DNA of 64,000 nt from a virus (taxonomy: Duplodnaviria > Heunggongvirae > Uroviricota > Caudoviricetes). Under the pieces are notes generated by a model that worked only from the letters and a program-made list of their open reading frames with translations, was not told the origin of the DNA and searched no databases. This document shows, piece after piece, positions 27,645 to 36,542 of the stretch (position 1 is the first letter of the stretch; the number at the start of each line of letters is the position of its first letter). Made by a program: the position numbers and the translations under genes. Location of the stretch: IMG/VR virus record IMGVR_UViG_3300047546_003009; one strand, 5' to 3'.

Positions 27645-28349
27645 CTAATCCTCTAATTTATCGTTTCTTTTTGTAGTTCTACCATCAAATGGTCGGGCTT
27701 TTATCGTTGTATCCGTTTTATCAGACATTACATCATACGCATACAAACCCTGGTGTGTAATGTTGAATAGGTCAGCTCTCAGCATAATATCCAAAGGTGC
27801 ACATATACCCATTTTTATTACGTGGGAAATTAAATTTTTTGCCATGGCTGGGTCAATACTATATGCATGTGCTCTACAAATAAAGTGATAATTTGGTCCT
27901 TCAGAAGCGTGTGGTGGAATTGGATATATCTTCCAACCTTGTTGAGCCCACTCAGAACCACCAAGATAAACTATTGAATTGTAGCTTTGATGTTGCTCGA
28001 ATCTTTCAACCATAACAGTATCGTGCTCAAGAATTACAATTGGTTTATCAATCTTCGCACAGTGAACCCACAAACTAACGTGGCTCAGAGCACAAGCAAC
28101 CTCGCCCCTTGTTAAATAATGATCAGTAATTTTTAGCATGTTCATCACACTACAATCTTTACTGTGATCAGGAACAATTATTGGACTGTTTAAACCATTA
28201 TATGCATCCCACACTTTGTAAGGCATTCCAACACGTTTACACGATTCTTGACACTGTGCTGAATATTTTAGTGAATTATCGTTATTTTTTAGCGTTATAA
28301 TATACGCCGACTCAACGTTTATATCGTTACTTCTAAATAAGCTTAACAT
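27645..28349 (-). CDS. Glycosyltransferase, GT25-like
   Basis: AYIITLKN, GEVACALSH..LW..C, IVILEHD, AHAY.I, PLD. Confidence 0.8.
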   Translation of the reverse strand: MLSLFRSNDINVESAYIITLKNNDNSLKYSAQCQESCKRVGMPYKVWDAYNGLNSPIIVPDHSKDCSVMNMLKITDHYLTRGEVACALSHVSLWVHCAKIDKPIVILEHDTVMVERFEQHQSYNSIVYLGGSEWAQQGWKIYPIPPHASEGPNYHFICRAHAYSIDPAMAKNLISHVIKMGICAPLDIMLRADLFNITHQGLYAYDVMSDKTDTTIKARPFDGRTTKRNDKLED

Positions 28350-28951
28350 AGTTTCACAAATGCTGTTTGAAGCATGTCAGGTAACCAAATTGGTTTTACC
28401 TTATGCCAGTTACATTGAATAAAGTTCTCAATCGCAACACGTGGATTCATCTGGGCACTGTAAGTACCGTTATTATCTTTAAATCTCCACTCGGTTGCAT
28501 CATCACAGAGAATAACACCACCCACCTTCAACATTTTAAATGATAATACCAGGTCCATCAGAACGGCACTGGCAAAATGATCCCCATCAATGTATACAAA
28601 TTCGGGTTGAACATTCTGGTTGATAAGGTCAATTAACCCATCCTCAGATTTTTTCTTGATGTAGTGAATGTTTTTTGTCGAACATTGAGAAATGTTTTTT
28701 TGGAATCTTACCCCGGCCGCAGCCATGTCCTCATGAATATCTACACTATCACTGTGAGGATCAATTGCGTAAATGTCTAGATGGGGATTATACTGATGCA
28801 GAACATCACCCATCCAACACGTTGTGTAACCCTCATAGCATCCAATCTCAACAATGGTTGAGGGGATGCCAAACGTGTTTATGATGTGGGAAATGTTCTT
28901 TTGAGTGGATTCAGGATTAAATGCAACAGTAAACTCATAATTTTTGGTCAT
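28343..28951 (-). CDS. Class I SAM-dependent methyltransferase (Methyltransf_24-like)
   Basis: IVEIGCYEGYTT, YAIDP, FVYIDGDH, LKVGGVILCDD. Confidence 0.85.
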   Translation of the reverse strand: MTKNYEFTVAFNPESTQKNISHIINTFGIPSTIVEIGCYEGYTTCWMGDVLHQYNPHLDIYAIDPHSDSVDIHEDMAAAGVRFQKNISQCSTKNIHYIKKKSEDGLIDLINQNVQPEFVYIDGDHFASAVLMDLVLSFKMLKVGGVILCDDATEWRFKDNNGTYSAQMNPRVAIENFIQCNWHKVKPIWLPDMLQTAFVKLC

Positions 28952-30653
28952 TTAAAATTTTCTCAATTTCTTGCTCATACTCAGCTTTGCCATATCGGCC
29001 AGGTTTATGAACCTGGATCAACATAATCATACTTTGAGCAACATTATTAAAATGGTTAAGCGCGTACGTCAACTCTTCGTTTGTAATTTCTCCACGTTGA
29101 ATCTTGTGTTGCCACGGCGCTGTGTAAACAAACTGCGTATCACACACATTAATATCTATATCATGTTCAAAAGCAAGTGGTGAATCACTTTCTCCTGCTT
29201 GAATCCGTTGCATTGCTTTTTGCTGATCAAACAAATTAAATAATCCAAGTGTTATAAGATGTTTATGACCTGGATCATCTAAAGCAGTATCACATCTCCA
29301 GTGAGGAACTTGAATTTCCCAGATGGCACCATTTTCACTAACGCGATACATTTCTTTAATAGCATGAACTGGATCATCAAGATGTTCAAACACATCTTTA
29401 GCTACGATATGTGTGTAGGTGTTTTCATTCCAAGGCCAATCTTTATTGAGATCAACAACTTCATCTGGTTTGACTATTGGAGAAATATCAACGTTGTGAT
29501 AACCCTTAAACTTCTTTAATCCACAACCCAGATTGAGCTTTTTGGCTTCTTTATCTTCGTTAGGCATATCAATGTGTTCAAGATCATATGATTCTTCTAA
29601 GCACTCATATATTTCTTGAAATGGGTCATTCCACTTACCGTATGTTTTTTGCCTAAACAAAAGAGCTGATTCATAATACGGTGTTGTGGAAGATGAAGGA
29701 GCTTTAAACGTCCACGTATGGTATGGAAGACATGGAACAACAATCCATGTTGGTTTGCCCATCGCTGCCGAAAGATGTGCAATACTCGTGCAGCTTGTAA
29801 TAACAAGATCAAGGTTAGAAACTGCAGCAGCTGTATCTTCCCAGCTTAACAACATATGTTGCAAATCAATAATGCCTTCGGGAAGAGATACTGTGTTATG
29901 GTCTCTCTGCAAACTATAAAGCTGCAGTTCCTCGTACTTAACCAGATTTGTTATGAAGTTTGTTGGGAACCGTCTGAATTGCTGATGCTCAAACTTAGGA
30001 TTGCCTGCCCAACGGATACCCACCTTAATTTTATCTGAGTTAATTAAACTTTTCCAGATGTTGACAGATTCTTGTTTAGCAGAAATGTACGGTGCGCTGA
30101 TGAAATTTTCAAATGTGTGACCAGCAACCCACCCAGCACTAAAACCAGGTACCCAAAAATCATGTTCAACTGTGTGAGCTTGATTGCGAAGTATAACATC
30201 ATCAACACCAGGAACTCGCTTAAACAAGCTTACAAGCTCGGGGGCAGCTGCAAGATATACTTTAGAGGCACCTAGTGCTTTATAGCTTTGTGCAAATCTT
30301 GCGTGAATGATCTCATCACCAAAACCACCTTCAAGGCTGATGATAATGGATTTACCCTTTATATCATACTGAGCTGGATTGTATATTGGTGCTTTTGTTT
30401 TTAGTGGTGGACTACCATAGACGTTCAAAAACCTACCATTTTCTAAAAGCTGACATCCGTTCTGGTAGTCGCCATCCTGAATCATAAACCAGCCACGGTT
30501 AAAACAATGGCGCATCCAAATGTCTTCGGTGTTCTTACCAAATGGGTCTAGAACACCTTTAGGACCAAGTTTTTCGAGCTTGTCAGATATTGCTCTGGCT
30601 TGTTCGTGCTTGCCCTCAAGCTGCAACTGTAACATTAAATCTATATCATGCAT
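28935..30653 (-). CDS. Helical-repeat + GT-B (GT9-like) glycosyltransferase fused to a C-terminal SAM methyltransferase domain
   Basis: EGGFGDEI..ARF, VGIRWAGNP, SLQ, LDLVITSCTSIAHLSAAMGKP; then KLNLGCG, DISP, DVFEHL, W.IQVPH. Confidence 0.75.
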   Translation of the reverse strand: MHDIDLMLQLQLEGKHEQARAISDKLEKLGPKGVLDPFGKNTEDIWMRHCFNRGWFMIQDGDYQNGCQLLENGRFLNVYGSPPLKTKAPIYNPAQYDIKGKSIIISLEGGFGDEIIHARFAQSYKALGASKVYLAAAPELVSLFKRVPGVDDVILRNQAHTVEHDFWVPGFSAGWVAGHTFENFISAPYISAKQESVNIWKSLINSDKIKVGIRWAGNPKFEHQQFRRFPTNFITNLVKYEELQLYSLQRDHNTVSLPEGIIDLQHMLLSWEDTAAAVSNLDLVITSCTSIAHLSAAMGKPTWIVVPCLPYHTWTFKAPSSSTTPYYESALLFRQKTYGKWNDPFQEIYECLEESYDLEHIDMPNEDKEAKKLNLGCGLKKFKGYHNVDISPIVKPDEVVDLNKDWPWNENTYTHIVAKDVFEHLDDPVHAIKEMYRVSENGAIWEIQVPHWRCDTALDDPGHKHLITLGLFNLFDQQKAMQRIQAGESDSPLAFEHDIDINVCDTQFVYTAPWQHKIQRGEITNEELTYALNHFNNVAQSMIMLIQVHKPGRYGKAEYEQEIEKILNDQKL

Positions 30654-30678: not shown

Positions 30679-30686
30679 TATTTATT
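30679..30686 (-). promoter_or_regulatory. Late promoter variant AATAAATA upstream of the GT/MTase cassette
   Basis: Core TAAATA overlapping the RCC1 stop, approx. 25 nt before the GT-B start; SD GGAGG follows. Confidence 0.55.
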
Positions 30687-33600
30687 ACTGTTTAATAGCT
30701 CCTGCAAATCCAGGACCAGCACTCACAGATATCCAGTTAGATGTTCCAACCTGCACTGGGCTTGAACGGTTAGATGTATCATTCAAACCAAGCTCACCAC
30801 TACTGTTCTGACCCCATGCATATAGTTTGTTTGTGTTGCTAATAGCATAAGAAGAGTTATTGGCTGCTGATATTTTTGTGTATGATAAAGCACCAACTTG
30901 TGCTGGACTGCTAAAAAGTACAGATGTATTTGCTGCAACACCAGCAGCCCAACCACCCCACCCCCACAGTGTTTGATCGGATTTTATTGCAAGCGAGTGA
31001 CTTTTTCCTGCAGACACCTGTGTCCAACTAGATGAATCGAGAAGAGTTGGTCTAGCTTTTATAATGTTAACAATTGAATTTGCACCAACCTGTACTGGAC
31101 TTGATCTTGTTACTGTGGAATTGTCACCTACCATACCACCTGCTCCAGAAAGTCCCCACAGATACATTTGGCCAGTAGTATCGATTGCCCCATTAACAAA
31201 AATGTGATTACCTGAAGAAATAAGATTTGACCAATTGCTTAGAGCTCCTATCTGCACAGGAGAAGACCTCAAACCATTAATTGCCCCATTAATACCCAAC
31301 TCTCCGTTTGGATTGGCACCCCAGGACCAGAGCGTGCCATCGGCTTTTACACCAACCATATTTGATTGAGCGACACTAACACTTGTCCAACTACTTGTTC
31401 CAACCTGAACAGGACTTGATCTATTAACTACTGTTCCACTACCCAACTGTCCACTACCATTAGAACCCCACGTAAACAGAGCTCCATCTGAGCGGATGGC
31501 AGCACTTGAATAGTTTGCATAAATTAAAGTCCAGCTTGACGTACCAATTTGTACTGGTGATGATTTGCTAGCAGCTGTATTGTCTCCCAACTCACCATTT
31601 ATGTTATAGCCCCATCCATATAGCTTGCTATTAACATCAAGAGCAAGAGCATGTTGATTGCCAGCTGAAACTTGACTCCAACTGCTTGTTCCAACTTGAA
31701 CAGGACTTGAGCGAAGAGTTGCATCATTTAATCCTAACTGGCCTTGATTGTTTTGTCCCCAAGCCCACAATCCTCCATCGCTCTTCACTGCCAGAGCAAA
31801 CGCACTACCAGCCGATATCTTTGTAAAACTAATACCGACCTGTACTGGACTTGATCTTGTTACTACATCACTCAGTCCCAACTGCCCATTACCATTCAAA
31901 CCCCAAGCAAAAAGAGCGCCGTCGTTTCGTATCGCGTACATGCTCGTATCGTATAGCGCAGCTTGTGTCCAACTAGCAATTCCTAGAGCTTGTGGAACGC
32001 TAACAGCTGTATTAATAGCAGCAATGGATACATCACCCAAAACACCATCGGTGTTATACCCCCACACAAATAGCTTACCATCGGAACGTATCGCTGCTGA
32101 GGACGATGCTCCAACTAATATCTGGCTCCAACTAAGTTCAGGTGATGTCAATAACCCAAGCTGAGCTGAAGGGTTTTTACCCCACACATAGAGCTTGCTT
32201 GTTGAATCAGTGGCAACAACATGGCTAGCGTTAACAGATACCTGATTCCATGATGATGGAATATTATTATTAAGCATTGACTGCTGGATTGCTGTTTGTA
32301 CAGGACCGTATTGATGTACCCCACCTGCAGAATTATCACCTAGTACATCCCCGTTTGTGTTTCTACCCCATCCATATAACCTACCAGAAGAGTCAACAGC
32401 AGCTGAATTATATTCAGCACCAGCAGCACTTGAATGTTTTGAATAGTCAACTAACGTCCAACTTGATGTTCCTATTTGAACTGGTGACGACTTTGTAATA
32501 ACAGTCCCATCACCCACTTCACCATACGCGTTGCTACCCCACGCCCACAGTGTACCATCCAGTTTTATACCAGCACCACTTAAATATCCTGCCGTTATGG
32601 AAGTCCAGCTAGATGTACCAACCTGTACAGGGCTTGAACGGTTGGTTACACCGTTCTGCCCAAGCCTGCCATTTGCACCAGCACCCCATGTAAATAAACC
32701 TCCATCACTACGAATTGCACCCATCCATACACCCAAGCCACCAATACTGACTTGTGTCCAGCTTGATGTTCCAATCTGAACAGGACTCGATCTAAAGCCA
32801 CCAACAGCTGTTGTTGTAAATTCACCAAGTGATCCAAAACCATTTGAACCCCAAGTAAACAGCCCTCCATCAGTTCTTATTGCAGCTGTTTGCGATGCGC
32901 CAGCAGCAACTGACGACCATGAAGAGGTTCCAATTTGAACAGGTGAGGATCTTGAAATAATTGATGAATCACCAACCTGACCCGATGTGTTTAATCCCCA
33001 ACCCCAAAGAGTACCGTCGCTTTTTACAGCTAGAGCATAGTTAGATCCAGCTGATATGCTGTTCCAAACACTGGTACCTATTTGTACAGGACTTGAGCGG
33101 TTTGTTGTCGATGCAAGATTTAAACCTAGCTGTCCGTTACCATTTGCACCCCACGACCACAGTGTACCATCGTAACGAATAGCCACAGTATAGCTCGCAC
33201 CACAACCAACATTTGTCCACGAATCTCCAACAGCTCCAACCTGCACAGGACTTGAACGAGAAACAGCCGTGCCATCGCCCAGCTGACCGGTTGTGTTAAA
33301 ACCCCACATAAACAAAGCACCGTCACTGCGAATTGCACCCGTAAACCCCCACCCCTTTGATATTTTTGTCCATGAAAGAGGCTTCACCTGGATAGGATAA
33401 CCTTTGGCCGATGACGTATAATCACCAAGCTGATTGTTAGTATTGTCACCCCACATAAATAACGTTTTCGTGGTAGTTATGGCAGCACTTGTGTTTCCCG
33501 AAGCACTTACAATAGTCCAGCTACTCGTTCCTATTTGACCCAAACTGTTTCTTTGAGGTAAAGGAGTTGTTAGCACAGGGGAGTTTCTTGCAGTTACTGT

Positions 33601-34998
33601 GTTGTCTGCTAACTGTCCATTACTGTTCAGCCCCCACATATACAAAGCAGTTCCAATCAAAGCCCCTGCACCGGCCCCCGTTGATTTTCCTCCAGAAACA
33701 CTTGTCCAACTTGATGTTCCTACTTGTGTGGGGCTTGATCTGGCTACAGTATCTCCCTGGCCAGGAGCTCCATTTGTACCGTTACCCCACGACCATAGTG
33801 TACCATCGCTGGTACGCCGAGCGTATATATTAGCACCGCCACAATCAACCTGAGACCAGCTTGATGTTCCAATCTGAACAGGGCTCGATCTGCTGGTAGT
33901 ATCGTTCTGTCCAAGCTGTCCAGAGCTATTAAATCCCCAAGCAAATAATCCACCATCAATCCGCAAAGCAGCAGAAAAAGATACACCTGCACTCACCTGT
34001 GTCCAACTGCTTGTTCCAAGTTGTGTTGGATTTGAAAGATTGGTCGCATTGTTGGTTCCCAAACCACCACCCGCTGCCTGACCCCAGACATATAACGCAC
34101 CAGTTGTTACTAAACCCAGGGAATGTGTTTGGCCAGTAGCTACCAGCGTCCAGCTTGATGTGCCTACTTGTACAGGACTTGACCTATTTGTTGACGAGTT
34201 ATCGCCCAGCTGACCAAGATCGTTTCGTCCCCAAGTAAATAAAGCACCAGTTGTTTTTATTGCTGCAGTGAATGATGAACTACAATAAACAGATGCCCAG
34301 TTTGTATCCGTACCTATTTGCACAGGACTTGAGCGAGAAACAACTGTACCATCACCCAGCTGACCAGTTGTGTTTAACCCCCAAGCCCACAGCGTGCCAT
34401 CACCGCGAATTGCTGCCACATGACCCCACCCAGCTGAAGCGTTTTTCCAGCTTGCAGTTCCAACCTGTACTGGTGAAGACCTTGTTATTGTAGCATCGTT
34501 AAGTCCTAACTCACCATTTGTGCTAGCACCCCACGTAAACATCACACCATCGGTTCTCAGAGCCACACTATGTGTGGTGCTTCTGCTCACTTGAGCCCAA
34601 TACTGATTGTATGTGGTAACTTCGCCCAGTTGTCCACCCGACCCAAGTCCTTGAGTCCACAATGTTCCGTCACTTTTCACAGCAAGCATGTGACTTGATC
34701 CAGCAGCCACAGCGTTCCATGAACCGCTTCCTAAAGAAACGGGGCTGCTTGAATAATAACTTGCTGGCAGCTGCCCCCATCCCCATAGCGTACCATCAGT
34801 TTTAATAGCCGCAGTAAAATTATCACCCGTAGCCAGTGCTGACCAACTAGAGGTTCCTACCTGGACGGGGCTTGATCTAGACGTTAACGTTGAGTCACCA
34901 AGTTGTCCTAGAGAGTTTGAACCCCACTGAAACAATGGACCAGTTGTTGGTCCTGCTGTGGTCTGTTGCTGTACTAAAGCGAGAAACTTAGCTAGCAT
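30685..34998 (-). CDS. RCC1/BLIP-II repeat beta-propeller protein (28 repeats), probable virion adhesin/receptor-binding protein
   Basis: 28 WG-centred repeats of approx. 50 aa (LxxWGxNxxGQLGxxxxxxRSSPVQIGTSSW), counted by hand. Confidence 0.9.
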   Translation of the reverse strand: MLAKFLALVQQQTTAGPTTGPLFQWGSNSLGQLGDSTLTSRSSPVQVGTSSWSALATGDNFTAAIKTDGTLWGWGQLPASYYSSSPVSLGSGSWNAVAAGSSHMLAVKSDGTLWTQGLGSGGQLGEVTTYNQYWAQVSRSTTHSVALRTDGVMFTWGASTNGELGLNDATITRSSPVQVGTASWKNASAGWGHVAAIRGDGTLWAWGLNTTGQLGDGTVVSRSSPVQIGTDTNWASVYCSSSFTAAIKTTGALFTWGRNDLGQLGDNSSTNRSSPVQVGTSSWTLVATGQTHSLGLVTTGALYVWGQAAGGGLGTNNATNLSNPTQLGTSSWTQVSAGVSFSAALRIDGGLFAWGFNSSGQLGQNDTTSRSSPVQIGTSSWSQVDCGGANIYARRTSDGTLWSWGNGTNGAPGQGDTVARSSPTQVGTSSWTSVSGGKSTGAGAGALIGTALYMWGLNSNGQLADNTVTARNSPVLTTPLPQRNSLGQIGTSSWTIVSASGNTSAAITTTKTLFMWGDNTNNQLGDYTSSAKGYPIQVKPLSWTKISKGWGFTGAIRSDGALFMWGFNTTGQLGDGTAVSRSSPVQVGAVGDSWTNVGCGASYTVAIRYDGTLWSWGANGNGQLGLNLASTTNRSSPVQIGTSVWNSISAGSNYALAVKSDGTLWGWGLNTSGQVGDSSIISRSSPVQIGTSSWSSVAAGASQTAAIRTDGGLFTWGSNGFGSLGEFTTTAVGGFRSSPVQIGTSSWTQVSIGGLGVWMGAIRSDGGLFTWGAGANGRLGQNGVTNRSSPVQVGTSSWTSITAGYLSGAGIKLDGTLWAWGSNAYGEVGDGTVITKSSPVQIGTSSWTLVDYSKHSSAAGAEYNSAAVDSSGRLYGWGRNTNGDVLGDNSAGGVHQYGPVQTAIQQSMLNNNIPSSWNQVSVNASHVVATDSTSKLYVWGKNPSAQLGLLTSPELSWSQILVGASSSAAIRSDGKLFVWGYNTDGVLGDVSIAAINTAVSVPQALGIASWTQAALYDTSMYAIRNDGALFAWGLNGNGQLGLSDVVTRSSPVQVGISFTKISAGSAFALAVKSDGGLWAWGQNNQGQLGLNDATLRSSPVQVGTSSWSQVSAGNQHALALDVNSKLYGWGYNINGELGDNTAASKSSPVQIGTSSWTLIYANYSSAAIRSDGALFTWGSNGSGQLGSGTVVNRSSPVQVGTSSWTSVSVAQSNMVGVKADGTLWSWGANPNGELGINGAINGLRSSPVQIGALSNWSNLISSGNHIFVNGAIDTTGQMYLWGLSGAGGMVGDNSTVTRSSPVQVGANSIVNIIKARPTLLDSSSWTQVSAGKSHSLAIKSDQTLWGWGGWAAGVAANTSVLFSSPAQVGALSYTKISAANNSSYAISNTNKLYAWGQNSSGELGLNDTSNRSSPVQVGTSNWISVSAGPGFAGAIKQ

Positions 34999-35503
34999 TT
35001 AGTTCTGGCCACGTGATATTGAATGGATCGGGTTGTTGAGTGATATCTGCAAGAGATTGCATATACAAATCAAGCTTTTGTATATCATCTGTTGGTGTTA
35101 ATCCTAAGCGGAGCTCACGATCATACCGTAGGTATCTCCAATCAGTATCTGCCATCATTGTATCTCTTTGATGGCGTACATAACTCCATTGATTTTCTAT
35201 GACAGCAGCTTGATCTGCAGCTATTTGTGCTTCTGTTCTTACTATTGCAGGTTGTTCAGGAATTGTTTCAACCTCAAAAGTTTCTCTAACACCATTACCA
35301 TCAAAAATATACTTCAGCTTACCCAGACGTTGGCCAGCACCATATTCTGGAACCTCTTGACGAATCTTATACCAACCAAGCGTGCTAAGATATGAATCTT
35401 CTGTAGAAAGGGTATAGAAGTTACTAATGTTTTTCCAGTTTTCTGGAAGCTGATCATAAACACCAACAATCTCACCATTTTCAATATATGCAAAATTAGC
35501 CAT
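34988..35503 (-). CDS. Tail fibre assembly chaperone-like protein
   Basis: C-terminal WSYVRHQRDTMMADTDWR...YMQSLADITQQ.DPFNITWP pattern of phage tail assembly proteins. Confidence 0.75.
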   Translation of the reverse strand: MANFAYIENGEIVGVYDQLPENWKNISNFYTLSTEDSYLSTLGWYKIRQEVPEYGAGQRLGKLKYIFDGNGVRETFEVETIPEQPAIVRTEAQIAADQAAVIENQWSYVRHQRDTMMADTDWRYLRYDRELRLGLTPTDDIQKLDLYMQSLADITQQPDPFNITWPELNAS

Positions 35504-35940
35504 TATAGATTCTGCCCTGCTGTAAATGCTTGCCAGTTAGTTCCACCATCGATGGTGAAAAATGCAAACACATCACGTTTATTGTTTGTTGATGTAAGTG
35601 TTGGTGCTGTTCCACTAGGCCATCTAAATGATGTTGGCCATGTAACAGAGCGAGCTGTCCCATCGGCCGTAAACATTAAAATGAAACTGGTAGATTGCCC
35701 AGCTCCAGATGGATAGCTGGAAAGCGTCAATGTAGTAACGGCACTATTGAGATTCACATTAAAGATCGAAGAGCTGCTAAGATTGATCGTTAATGTGCTT
35801 GCTGAGATAGCAACATTTGAATATTCCTCAGCATAGTTAGAAAGAAGGCTGAGAACACCAGTTACGGTTGCTGTGTTTGCTATAGTAGCGTTGCCAGAAA
35901 CAGTCAAGCCGTTTCTGACGATAAAGTCTTTGGTGGCCAA
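35503..35940 (-). CDS. Virion fibre adaptor-like protein, TTG start
   Basis: TKDFIVRNGL N-terminus; C-terminal RSVTWPTSFRWPSGTAPTLT...DVFAFFTIDGGTNW domain frequent in phage fibres. Confidence 0.6.
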   Translation of the reverse strand: MATKDFIVRNGLTVSGNATIANTATVTGVLSLLSNYAEEYSNVAISASTLTINLSSSSIFNVNLNSAVTTLTLSSYPSGAGQSTSFILMFTADGTARSVTWPTSFRWPSGTAPTLTSTNNKRDVFAFFTIDGGTNWQAFTAGQNL

Positions 35941-35975: not shown

Positions 35976-36542
35976 CTATCTCCACTTGGGACCATCAAAC
36001 CAAACAGCTAACGATCTTCTTAATCCTCGAGTCACAGGAAGCGCTGCGTGTGGTATAAACGAAGGGAAGAAAATAACAGTCCCTCGTTGTCGCAGTGCTT
36101 CTGGTATTGGTGGGGAAAGAGATAATTCATACAACTCTAAATCACCACCATCATACTCTGAAGGGTCCGACAACTGAACCACACAAGTAAGCTTTCTGTG
36201 ATAATATGGGTCGTTATTAATCCAAAAAACATCGTGGTGTTTTTTATATTCGCCCTGATCATCAGCTGAATATTCTGCTAGCTGAATATAATTCAGCTTT
36301 TGAATATGAAAACCAAACCACTCATCATTAGCCTGCAATGCCATCTTCCACAAGCTATCAAACAAATAGGTAAAAGTGCTATCTGTTTTTTGGATGAATC
36401 TGACTTTGCTTCGTCGATGTTGGTGATTGATGTTGCCTCCTGTTGTTCCATCCTGCACAGGAAGCTCCAACCCTTTTTCTATAATATAATCGCATTGCTC
36501 TGGTGTAAACGCAGAGCTAAAATAACACCACTCACCTCTCAT
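35976..36542 (-). CDS. 2OG-Fe(II) oxygenase (prolyl 4-hydroxylase-like)
   Basis: YKKHHD (HxD), RKLTCVVQLS, YDGGDL, FPSFIPH, VTRGLRRSLAVW. Confidence 0.9.
   Translation of the reverse strand: MRGEWCYFSSAFTPEQCDYIIEKGLELPVQDGTTGGNINHQHRRSKVRFIQKTDSTFTYLFDSLWKMALQANDEWFGFHIQKLNYIQLAEYSADDQGEYKKHHDVFWINNDPYYHRKLTCVVQLSDPSEYDGGDLELYELSLSPPIPEALRQRGTVIFFPSFIPHAALPVTRGLRRSLAVWFDGPKWR

What the first reader, a model, noticed from the sequence alone, without database searches (positions are those of the whole stretch)
30685..34998. Nested RCC1 architecture: a hub propeller with three complete 7-blade propellers inserted into its loops
Seen: 28 WG repeats. Repeats 4-10 (approx. 34599-33565), 12-18 (approx. 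33372-32293) and 20-26 (approx. 32130-31078) are uninterrupted sevens. Irregular junctions occur only around them (EVTTYNQY / PLPQRNSLGQIG; QVKPLS / AIQQSMLNNNIPSS; LLTSPELS / SIVNIIKARPTLLDSSS). The leftover repeats 1, 2, 3, 11, 19, 27, 28 total exactly seven, and the C-terminal strands close blade 1. Inference: a branched trefoil multivalent adhesin rather than four beads on a string.
Basis: partly seen in the sequence, partly recalled or inferred. Interest (0 to 1): 0.75.

Follow-up and report, generated by a model that had tools for sequence, protein, structure and literature searches.

The report
Phage protein with propellers inside propeller
This 1,437-residue protein of an uncultured T4-like phage is very probably one seven-bladed ring whose chain leaves three times to build a complete extra ring and returns; related phages add, swap and further nest such rings, probably as a variable binding head on the tail fibre.

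Summary
Confirmed: 28 RCC1 repeats, with the junctions where reported. The nested reading is well supported. Two sites lack the outer strand, which reappears exactly seven blades later. Across 208 de-duplicated homologues such open-close spans are 7, 14, 21 or 28 blades in 43% of cases (shuffles 6.5%). Two 35-repeat orthologues carry a fourth 7-blade cassette inside hub blade 27. Hub blades are better conserved (61% vs 43%), and two cassettes diverge as whole blocks. An ESMFold2 three-piece model closes the hub as predicted (0.76 vs control 0.39; cuts and alignment presupposed the parse). An AlphaFold2 fragment model did not reproduce the nesting. Corrections: cassette 2 sits between two hub blades, not inside one, and the inserts occupy adjacent blades, so a symmetric trefoil is not shown. 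The adhesin role rests on context only: fibre-end domain, tail-fibre chaperone, RCC1 gene, glycosyltransferase. Propeller-in-propeller is known (WD40 Trm734); I found no description for RCC1 or phages. This scan found the same grammar before on other DNA (e1-5438190, e1-5438191).

The parts
34936..34998 (-). N-terminal 21-residue hydrophobic peptide plus linker; candidate docking peptide (inferred)
   Evidence: similar short hydrophobic N-termini in 26 RCC1 genes that follow the fibre-end domain
34600..34935 (-). Hub part 1: C-D half of blade 1, blade 2, A-B-C of blade 3 (res 22-133)
   Evidence: strand C1 pairs with the C-terminal strand in the ESMFold2 model
33568..34599 (-). Satellite propeller 1, repeats 4-10 (res 134-477), inserted in the C-D loop of hub blade 3
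   Evidence: D strand missing at the opening and doubled at the return; no confident contact with the C-terminal piece
33373..33567 (-). Hub part 2: return strand D3 and hub blade 4 (repeat 11, res 478-542)
   Evidence: 64-67% identical to P0005/P0007 and 91% to P0242, against 23-37% for the preceding blade
32284..33372 (-). Satellite propeller 2, repeats 12-18 (res 543-905), inserted in the linker between hub blades 4 and 5
   Evidence: atypical KPLS/W entry, long return linker; blade 12 has the highest first-of-cassette score in P0001, a weak classifier; least sharp of the three junctions
32131..32283 (-). Hub part 3: return linker and A-B-C of hub blade 5 (repeat 19, res 906-956)
   Evidence: packs on blade 27
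31075..32130 (-). Satellite propeller 3, repeats 20-26 (res 957-1308), inserted in the C-D loop of hub blade 5
   Evidence: the equivalent block diverges as a unit between P0005 and P0007
30685..31074 (-). Hub part 4: return strand D19, hub blades 6 and 7 (repeats 27, 28) and the closing A-B strands (res 1309-1437); blade 27 is the empty site that holds a fourth cassette in P0005/P0007
34988..35503 (-). Tail-fibre assembly chaperone-like gene (171 aa), overlapping the RCC1 start
   Evidence: Pfam PF16778 above its cut-off; PHROG tail fibre assembly
35503..35940 (-). Fibre-end ('socket') domain protein, 145 aa; in relatives often the C-terminus of a long fibre
   Evidence: PHROG tail fibre hits; upstream of the RCC1 gene in 31 of 86 fetched loci, some redundant
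28935..30653 (-). Helical/TPR-like + GT9-like glycosyltransferase fused to a methyltransferase (572 aa), the near-constant downstream neighbour
   Evidence: 70 homologous ORFs in 86 loci; Atlas feature hits to GT9/TPR clusters, a lead only; weak Pfam methyltransferase hit

Best explanation
The protein folds into four 7-bladed RCC1-type beta-propellers. A hub is made from four separate chain segments (repeats 1,2,3,11,19,27,28) and closed by pairing the N-terminal C-D strands with the C-terminal A-B strands. Three satellites, each a contiguous A-to-D ring, hang from permissive loops of the hub by two linkers (architecture about 0.88; sequence pattern shown, fold predicted, not solved). Because each insert is a complete ring with both ends at one loop, satellites can be gained, lost, exchanged or nested again without disturbing the hub, and relatives show all of these (gain/loss and block divergence shown; recombination as the cause inferred). 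The protein is most likely docked by its short N-terminal peptide onto the fibre-end domain encoded upstream, with the PF16778 chaperone assisting, and presents several propeller faces as a variable, multivalent surface-binding head, possibly glycosylated by the neighbouring transferase (function about 0.6; all inferred from context).
For: (1) Geometry: C-to-next-A distance is trimodal, about 20-23 / 30-32 / 44. 361 of 386 short segments lack a D motif; bracket openings leave 3-12 residues after the GxLG loop against 14-25 in normal blades. (2) Statistics: innermost open-to-close span is exactly 7 in 46 cases among 83 de-duplicated proteins, shuffles mean 3.8, max 11. In 208 representatives spans are 7 (67), 14 (14), 21 (8), 28 (3): 43% multiples of 7 against 6.5%, max 15%. 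P0055 and P0111 nest 7/14/21/28. (3) Natural indel: P0005/P0007 have the same three cassettes plus seven blades between C and D of hub blade 27, both flanks kept. L007 has three cassettes at hub blades 3, 5, 6. (4) Conservation: hub blades 60.7% vs cassette blades 43.3%, permutation p=0.0004; 6 of 7 hub blades but 1 of 21 cassette blades find their positional orthologue as best match. P0005 vs P0007 DNA: blades 20-26 57-73% and 28-34 64-77%, flanked by hub blades at 88, 92 and 97%. (5) ESMFold2 on pieces 15-545, 906-956, 1309-1437: score 0.76, best of 3 controls 0.39 (mark reached by 58 of 80 solved complexes, 2 of 110 mismatched pairs; counts hold only roughly here), runs agree in at least 95% of contacts, partner pLDDT at least 84. 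The C-terminal piece touches chain 1 only at res 17-62 and 500-538, none in 134-477. The pass itself may come from likeness to solved RCC1 rings; the informative part is which blades are neighbours. (6) Context: T4-like virion module; socket, chaperone, RCC1, GT order conserved, also in cultured phage BUCT-ZZ01. RCC1-type proteins were found in virion proteomes of W70 (PMC11370258) and GAP32 (PMC5259590).
Against: AlphaFold2 on res 494-1437 (pLDDT 84, pTM 0.52) closed rings roughly at blades 11-17/18 and 18/19-25, not 12-18 and 20-26. The ESMFold2 test used cuts and an alignment chosen by the nested parse, did not contain satellites 2 and 3, and does not tell whether blade 3 or blade 10 fills the third hub position. 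The full-length protein could not be folded (limit 1200 aa). More than half of matched brackets are not multiples of 7 (parser noise, false openings such as blade 2). Homologues are related, so the counts are not independent events. Most 14-repeat homologues show no brackets. No ligand, host or virion location is known.
Confidence: 0.65

Rival explanations
1. Four sequential propellers (beads on a string); the short and long repeats are tolerated irregularities.
For: Repeat count is 28 either way. AlphaFold2 on the fragment built rings from consecutive blades across the junctions. Bracket-free homologues with 14-49 repeats exist.
Against: No linkers at 7/8, 14/15 or 21/22. It does not explain why a missing D strand is repaid exactly 7, 14, 21 or 28 blades later, nor the conserved hub islands between divergent 7-blade blocks. 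ESMFold2 paired the C-terminus with C1, not C8.
Confidence: 0.1
2. Nested architecture is right, but the protein is a structural or shielding appendage (a bulky, possibly glycosylated decoration that changes drag, non-specific sticking or protection) and not a receptor-binding adhesin.
For: Ser+Thr 24%, 26 N-x-S/T motifs; glycosyltransferase-like neighbour in most loci; size varies from 7 to at least 85 repeats; separate S74-type fibres in the window could be the true receptor binders.
Against: Block-wise diversification of satellites around a conserved hub is what host-recognition modules usually show (general knowledge); position directly after a fibre-end domain and chaperone.
Confidence: 0.2
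3. Internal head protein or host-directed factor, as suggested for RCC1-like proteins of phAPEC6 and W70 (DNA ordering in the capsid).
For: Suggested without test in PMC7247149 and PMC11370258; eukaryotic RCC1 binds chromatin.
Against: Near-neutral composition (K+R 4.6%, D+E 4.1%); large four-ring protein; gene sits in the fibre block with a tail-fibre chaperone, apart from the head genes.
Confidence: 0.05

Closest known systems
Yeast Trm734 (WD40 triple propeller; PMC6847430)
   Same: A complete 7-blade propeller (BPB) is inserted between strands c7 and d7 of another (BPA), and the chain starts with a strand of the third ring: the same c-d insertion principle.
   Different: WD40, not RCC1; three rings nested in series and fixed in number, against a hub with three side branches here and a variable number, position and depth in relatives; tRNA methyltransferase partner, not a phage protein.
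DDB1 / CPSF-160 propeller clusters
   Same: Three propellers in a trefoil pattern (10.1101/209809). From my own knowledge BPA and BPB are insertions into loops of BPC; not verified in the library.
   Different: WD40-type, eukaryotic scaffolds, hub with two inserts, diverged repeats, no known cassette gain or loss.
Single RCC1-type propellers: UVR8 (6XZL, 4DNW), RCC1 (1A12), HERC1/2 RLDs, RPGR
   Same: Same repeat and fold: best PDB sequence hits; VIA Z about 35, rmsd 3.2-3.5 A over about 345 residues for one predicted ring.
   Different: All solved chains hit are one ring; none is a nested multi-ring RCC1 protein.
Phage RCC1-like virion proteins (W70_237-239, GAP32 gp1, phAPEC6; PHROG 4219, 7220, 16766) and BUCT-ZZ01 UTS52180.1
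   Same: RCC1 repeats in myophages; BUCT-ZZ01 has the same fibre-end, chaperone, RCC1, GT cassette at 46% identity.
   Different: W70 proteins are 40-43 kDa (one-ring size); the BUCT-ZZ01 protein has 14 regular repeats with no brackets; no function or location shown for any.
T2/S16-type gp38 adhesin (from my own knowledge)
   Same: A separate protein encoded right after the fibre end, variable, thought of as the tip module.
   Different: gp38 uses a glycine-rich polyglycine sandwich; no such family was hit. A resemblance in role only.

Membership tests
RCC1/BLIP-II repeat propellers | About 50-residue RCC1 repeats | tested here: met
   PF00415 E 2e-182, PF25390 E 2e-232, above cut-offs; 28 repeats
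RCC1/BLIP-II repeat propellers | Seven-bladed ring fold | tested here: met
   Predicted fragment matches UVR8 at Z 35, rmsd 3.5 A, 348 aligned; prediction, not experiment
RCC1/BLIP-II repeat propellers | Ring closed by N-terminal C-D with C-terminal A-B strands | tested here: met
   Termini by sequence; res 21-27 pair with the last strand; applies to the hub only
Eukaryotic RCC1 (Ran GEF) | Ran nucleotide exchange and nucleosome binding | not testable with these tools
   No Ran in a bacterial host (general knowledge); only the fold is shared
Nested multi-propellers of Trm734/DDB1 type | Complete propeller inserted into a loop of another propeller | tested here: met
   Sequence grammar, indel and conservation; models split: for, not
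Nested multi-propellers of Trm734/DDB1 type | WD40-type repeats | tested here: not met
   Only RCC1-type Pfam families hit, all 28 repeats parse as RCC1: works like, not a member
Phage tail-fibre tip adhesin | Gene directly after fibre end and chaperone in the tail module | tested here: met
Phage tail-fibre tip adhesin | Physically docked on the fibre tip | not tested
Phage tail-fibre tip adhesin | Binds a host surface receptor and sets host range | not testable with these tools
   Uncultured phage, host unknown

The most novel reading that the evidence does not exclude
These phages run a combinatorial 'protein tree' system: whole RCC1 propellers are inserted into, and exchanged at, permissive loops of other propellers by recombination in conserved hub segments, giving branched and recursively nested multivalent fibre heads (four levels deep, up to at least 85 repeats) that tune host recognition one ring at a time.
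Probability: 0.4. Interest if true: 0.75.

Novelty: new variant of a known kind. Interest (0 to 1): 0.57.

Why it matters
It is a natural example of building very large branched single-chain proteins from one self-similar module by repeated domain insertion, with visible gain, loss and block exchange of whole rings. That bears on how multi-propeller proteins such as Trm734 or DDB1 could arise, identifies permissive loops for designing multivalent propeller scaffolds, and re-reads a common class of phage genes now annotated as 'regulator of chromosome condensation' as probable fibre-tip modules. It also warns that repeat order is not domain order: a confident AlphaFold2 model of a fragment put the rings in another register.

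Tried and rejected
AlphaFold2 on P0063 without alignment: pLDDT 45, matched beta-helix proteins, an artefact, discarded. Repeat-similarity lags 7, 8 and 9 were equal (6.9, 6.1, 8.4), so no discrimination. First/last-blade classifier was weak: it also scored blades 19, 21 and 22 positive. No clean 14-repeat homologue with a central insert among 120 shorter hits. The socket-domain profile found no PDB sequence; NCBIfam named neither the socket, the chaperone, the GT nor the RCC1 protein. Paper searches found no description of nested RCC1 or phage propellers (limited library) and no passage confirming the DDB1 topology. The exact P0001 sequence is not in the protein collection.
Full report
Observation. 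The ORF at 30685-34998 (-) encodes 1437 aa with 28 RCC1 C-strand motifs and only RCC1-type Pfam hits. Parsed into A-B-C-D strands, the chain begins at C1 and ends with an A-B pair. Repeat 3 ends after the glycine loop without a D strand (21 residues from C to the next A, against about 30), and repeat 10 is followed by a second D-like strand (PLPQRNSLGQIGTSS). The same holds for repeats 19 and 26. Repeat 11 keeps its D strand but enters repeat 12 through an atypical KPLS/W linker, and repeat 18 returns through a long linker. Repeats 2 and 27 are also short-looped but keep D.

Setting. The window is the virion module of a T4-like myophage: baseplate, fibres, this gene, neck, terminase, sheath, tube, portal, major head protein (most names by my reading of the translations). 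Upstream lie a 145-aa fibre-end domain (PHROG tail fibre) and a PF16778 tail-fibre chaperone; downstream lies a helical + GT9-like transferase fused to a methyltransferase. The fibre-end domain precedes the RCC1 gene in 31 of 86 fetched loci, 17 of them with the chaperone between, and 70 GT homologues occur in the 86 loci (some loci are redundant). Cultured Synechococcus phage BUCT-ZZ01 has the same four-gene cassette with a regular 14-repeat protein.

Family grammar. I parsed the homologues with a Viterbi chain of A and B-C motifs. The C-to-A distance is trimodal. Treating short segments as open brackets and long ones as close brackets, the innermost span is exactly seven blades in 62 cases (46 after de-duplication to 83 proteins), against shuffle means of 4.7 and 3.8 and maxima of 13 and 11. 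With a D-motif criterion on 208 representatives, spans are 7 (67), 14 (14), 21 (8) and 28 (3): 43% multiples of seven against 6.5% in shuffles. Short segments lack D in 361 of 386 cases, and openings leave 3-12 residues after the GxLG loop where normal blades use 14-25; I infer this is too short to supply D and reach the next blade of the same ring. Blade counts are multiples of seven in 33 of 50 cleanly parsed proteins. P0055 and P0111 nest four deep (7, 14, 21, 28), P0016 mixes branching and nesting, and L007 is another hub with three inserts, at hub blades 3, 5 and 6. The homologues are related, so these counts are not independent events, and over half of matched brackets are off-seven, which I attribute mostly to parser noise.

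Orthologue tests. P0005 and P0007 (35 repeats, 45-48% identical) share all three cassettes and carry seven more blades between C and D of hub blade 27, with both flanks preserved. Hub blades are 60.7% identical to these orthologues against 43.3% for cassette blades (p=0.0004), and 6 of 7 hub blades but 1 of 21 cassette blades pick their positional orthologue. Between P0005 and P0007 the DNA of blades 20-26 and 28-34 is 57-77% identical while hub blades 19, 27 and 35 are 88-97%, with the changes at the junctions. Whole satellites therefore diverge or are exchanged as units; recombination is the inferred cause. Part of cassette 1 (blades 6-7) also differs, so exchange is not only ring-wise.

Structure predictions. 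A single-sequence AlphaFold2 run on P0063 failed. A run on res 494-1437 with 100 mixed-register rows was confident (pLDDT 84.4, pTM 0.52) with dips at the junctions, but structural alignment placed its rings at about blades 11-17/18 and 18/19-25. It does not support the claim. ESMFold2 on three pieces (15-545, 906-956, 1309-1437) with bracket-matched alignments scored 0.76 against a best control of 0.39 (mark reached by 58 of 80 solved complexes and 2 of 110 mismatched pairs, counts only roughly valid here; runs agree in at least 95% of contacts; partner pLDDT at least 84). The C-terminal piece touched chain 1 only at res 17-62 and 500-538 and packed blade 27 on blade 19: ring order 1, 2, one more blade, 11, 19, 27, 28, with seven blades excluded. 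The pass may reflect likeness to solved RCC1 rings, and the design presupposed the parse; what it adds is that C1, not C8, was chosen. Overall I put the architecture at about 0.88.

Mechanism. Shown: repeat pattern, bracket grammar, cassette indel, block divergence, gene context. Predicted: four rings, hub closure. Inferred: docking of the hydrophobic N-terminal peptide on the fibre-end domain, chaperone help, multivalent surface binding, glycosylation by the neighbour. RCC1-type proteins occur in virion proteomes of W70 (PMC11370258) and GAP32 (PMC5259590), where a DNA-ordering role was only suspected; near-neutral composition and context argue against that here. The inserts sit on adjacent hub positions, so a one-sided fan is as likely as a trefoil.

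Comparison and novelty. Propeller-in-propeller has precedent in WD40 Trm734, where BPB lies between c7 and d7 of BPA (PMC6847430), and, from memory, in DDB1. This protein works like those topologically but is not a member. All solved RCC1 relatives hit are single rings. I found no paper on nested RCC1 or phage propellers in the held library. The scan noted the same grammar in two other phage proteins; that is not independent evidence. Verdict: real feature, new variant of a known kind, interest 0.57.

Noticed in passing
L019:1821-7766/7767-15581, L029:45-4532/4533-8429, L054:1-5007/5004-12440, L057:1-4998/4998-15977, L040, L026: In several phages the giant RCC1 array is split into abutting ORFs; the first ends after a C strand and the second starts with the D strand (in L026 with an A strand), i.e. 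in the same loop that takes the inserts. Suggests blades completed in trans by two polypeptides.
   Followed up: no
L027/L028:1-13580, L008:3-11552: RCC1 ORFs of at least 85 and 74 repeats (over 4500 and 3800 aa, cut at the locus edge).
   Followed up: no
P0024, P0052, P0064, L015:3095-10549: Bracket-free arrays of 35, 42 and 49 regular repeats with no visible linkers; how their rings are registered is unexplained.
   Followed up: no
L001, L052, L062-L065, L069-L086: A second layout: several single-ring (7-repeat) RCC1 genes in tandem around the same GT-like gene, mostly without socket or chaperone in the fetched stretch.
   Followed up: partly
window 28935-30653, 28343-28951, 27645-28349: GT9-like/methyltransferase fusion followed by two further modifying-enzyme-like genes; the GT homologue follows RCC1 genes in most loci, a candidate modifier of the Ser/Thr-rich propellers.
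   Followed up: partly
P0242 (ENA contig, 1291 aa): Close relative of this protein whose first 64 residues look like the N-terminus of a secreted bacterial protein, joined inside cassette 1; probably an assembly chimera.
   Followed up: no
window res 713-746 vs P0005/P0007 blade 8: A distinctive loop (GEFTTTAV..G.RSSP) lies in cassette 2 here but in cassette 1 of the orthologues, and again in cassette 4 of P0007: single blades also move between cassettes.
   Followed up: no
window 35976-36542: 2OG-Fe(II) oxygenase gene in the fibre block; a close homologue near the RCC1 cassette in L004.
   Followed up: no
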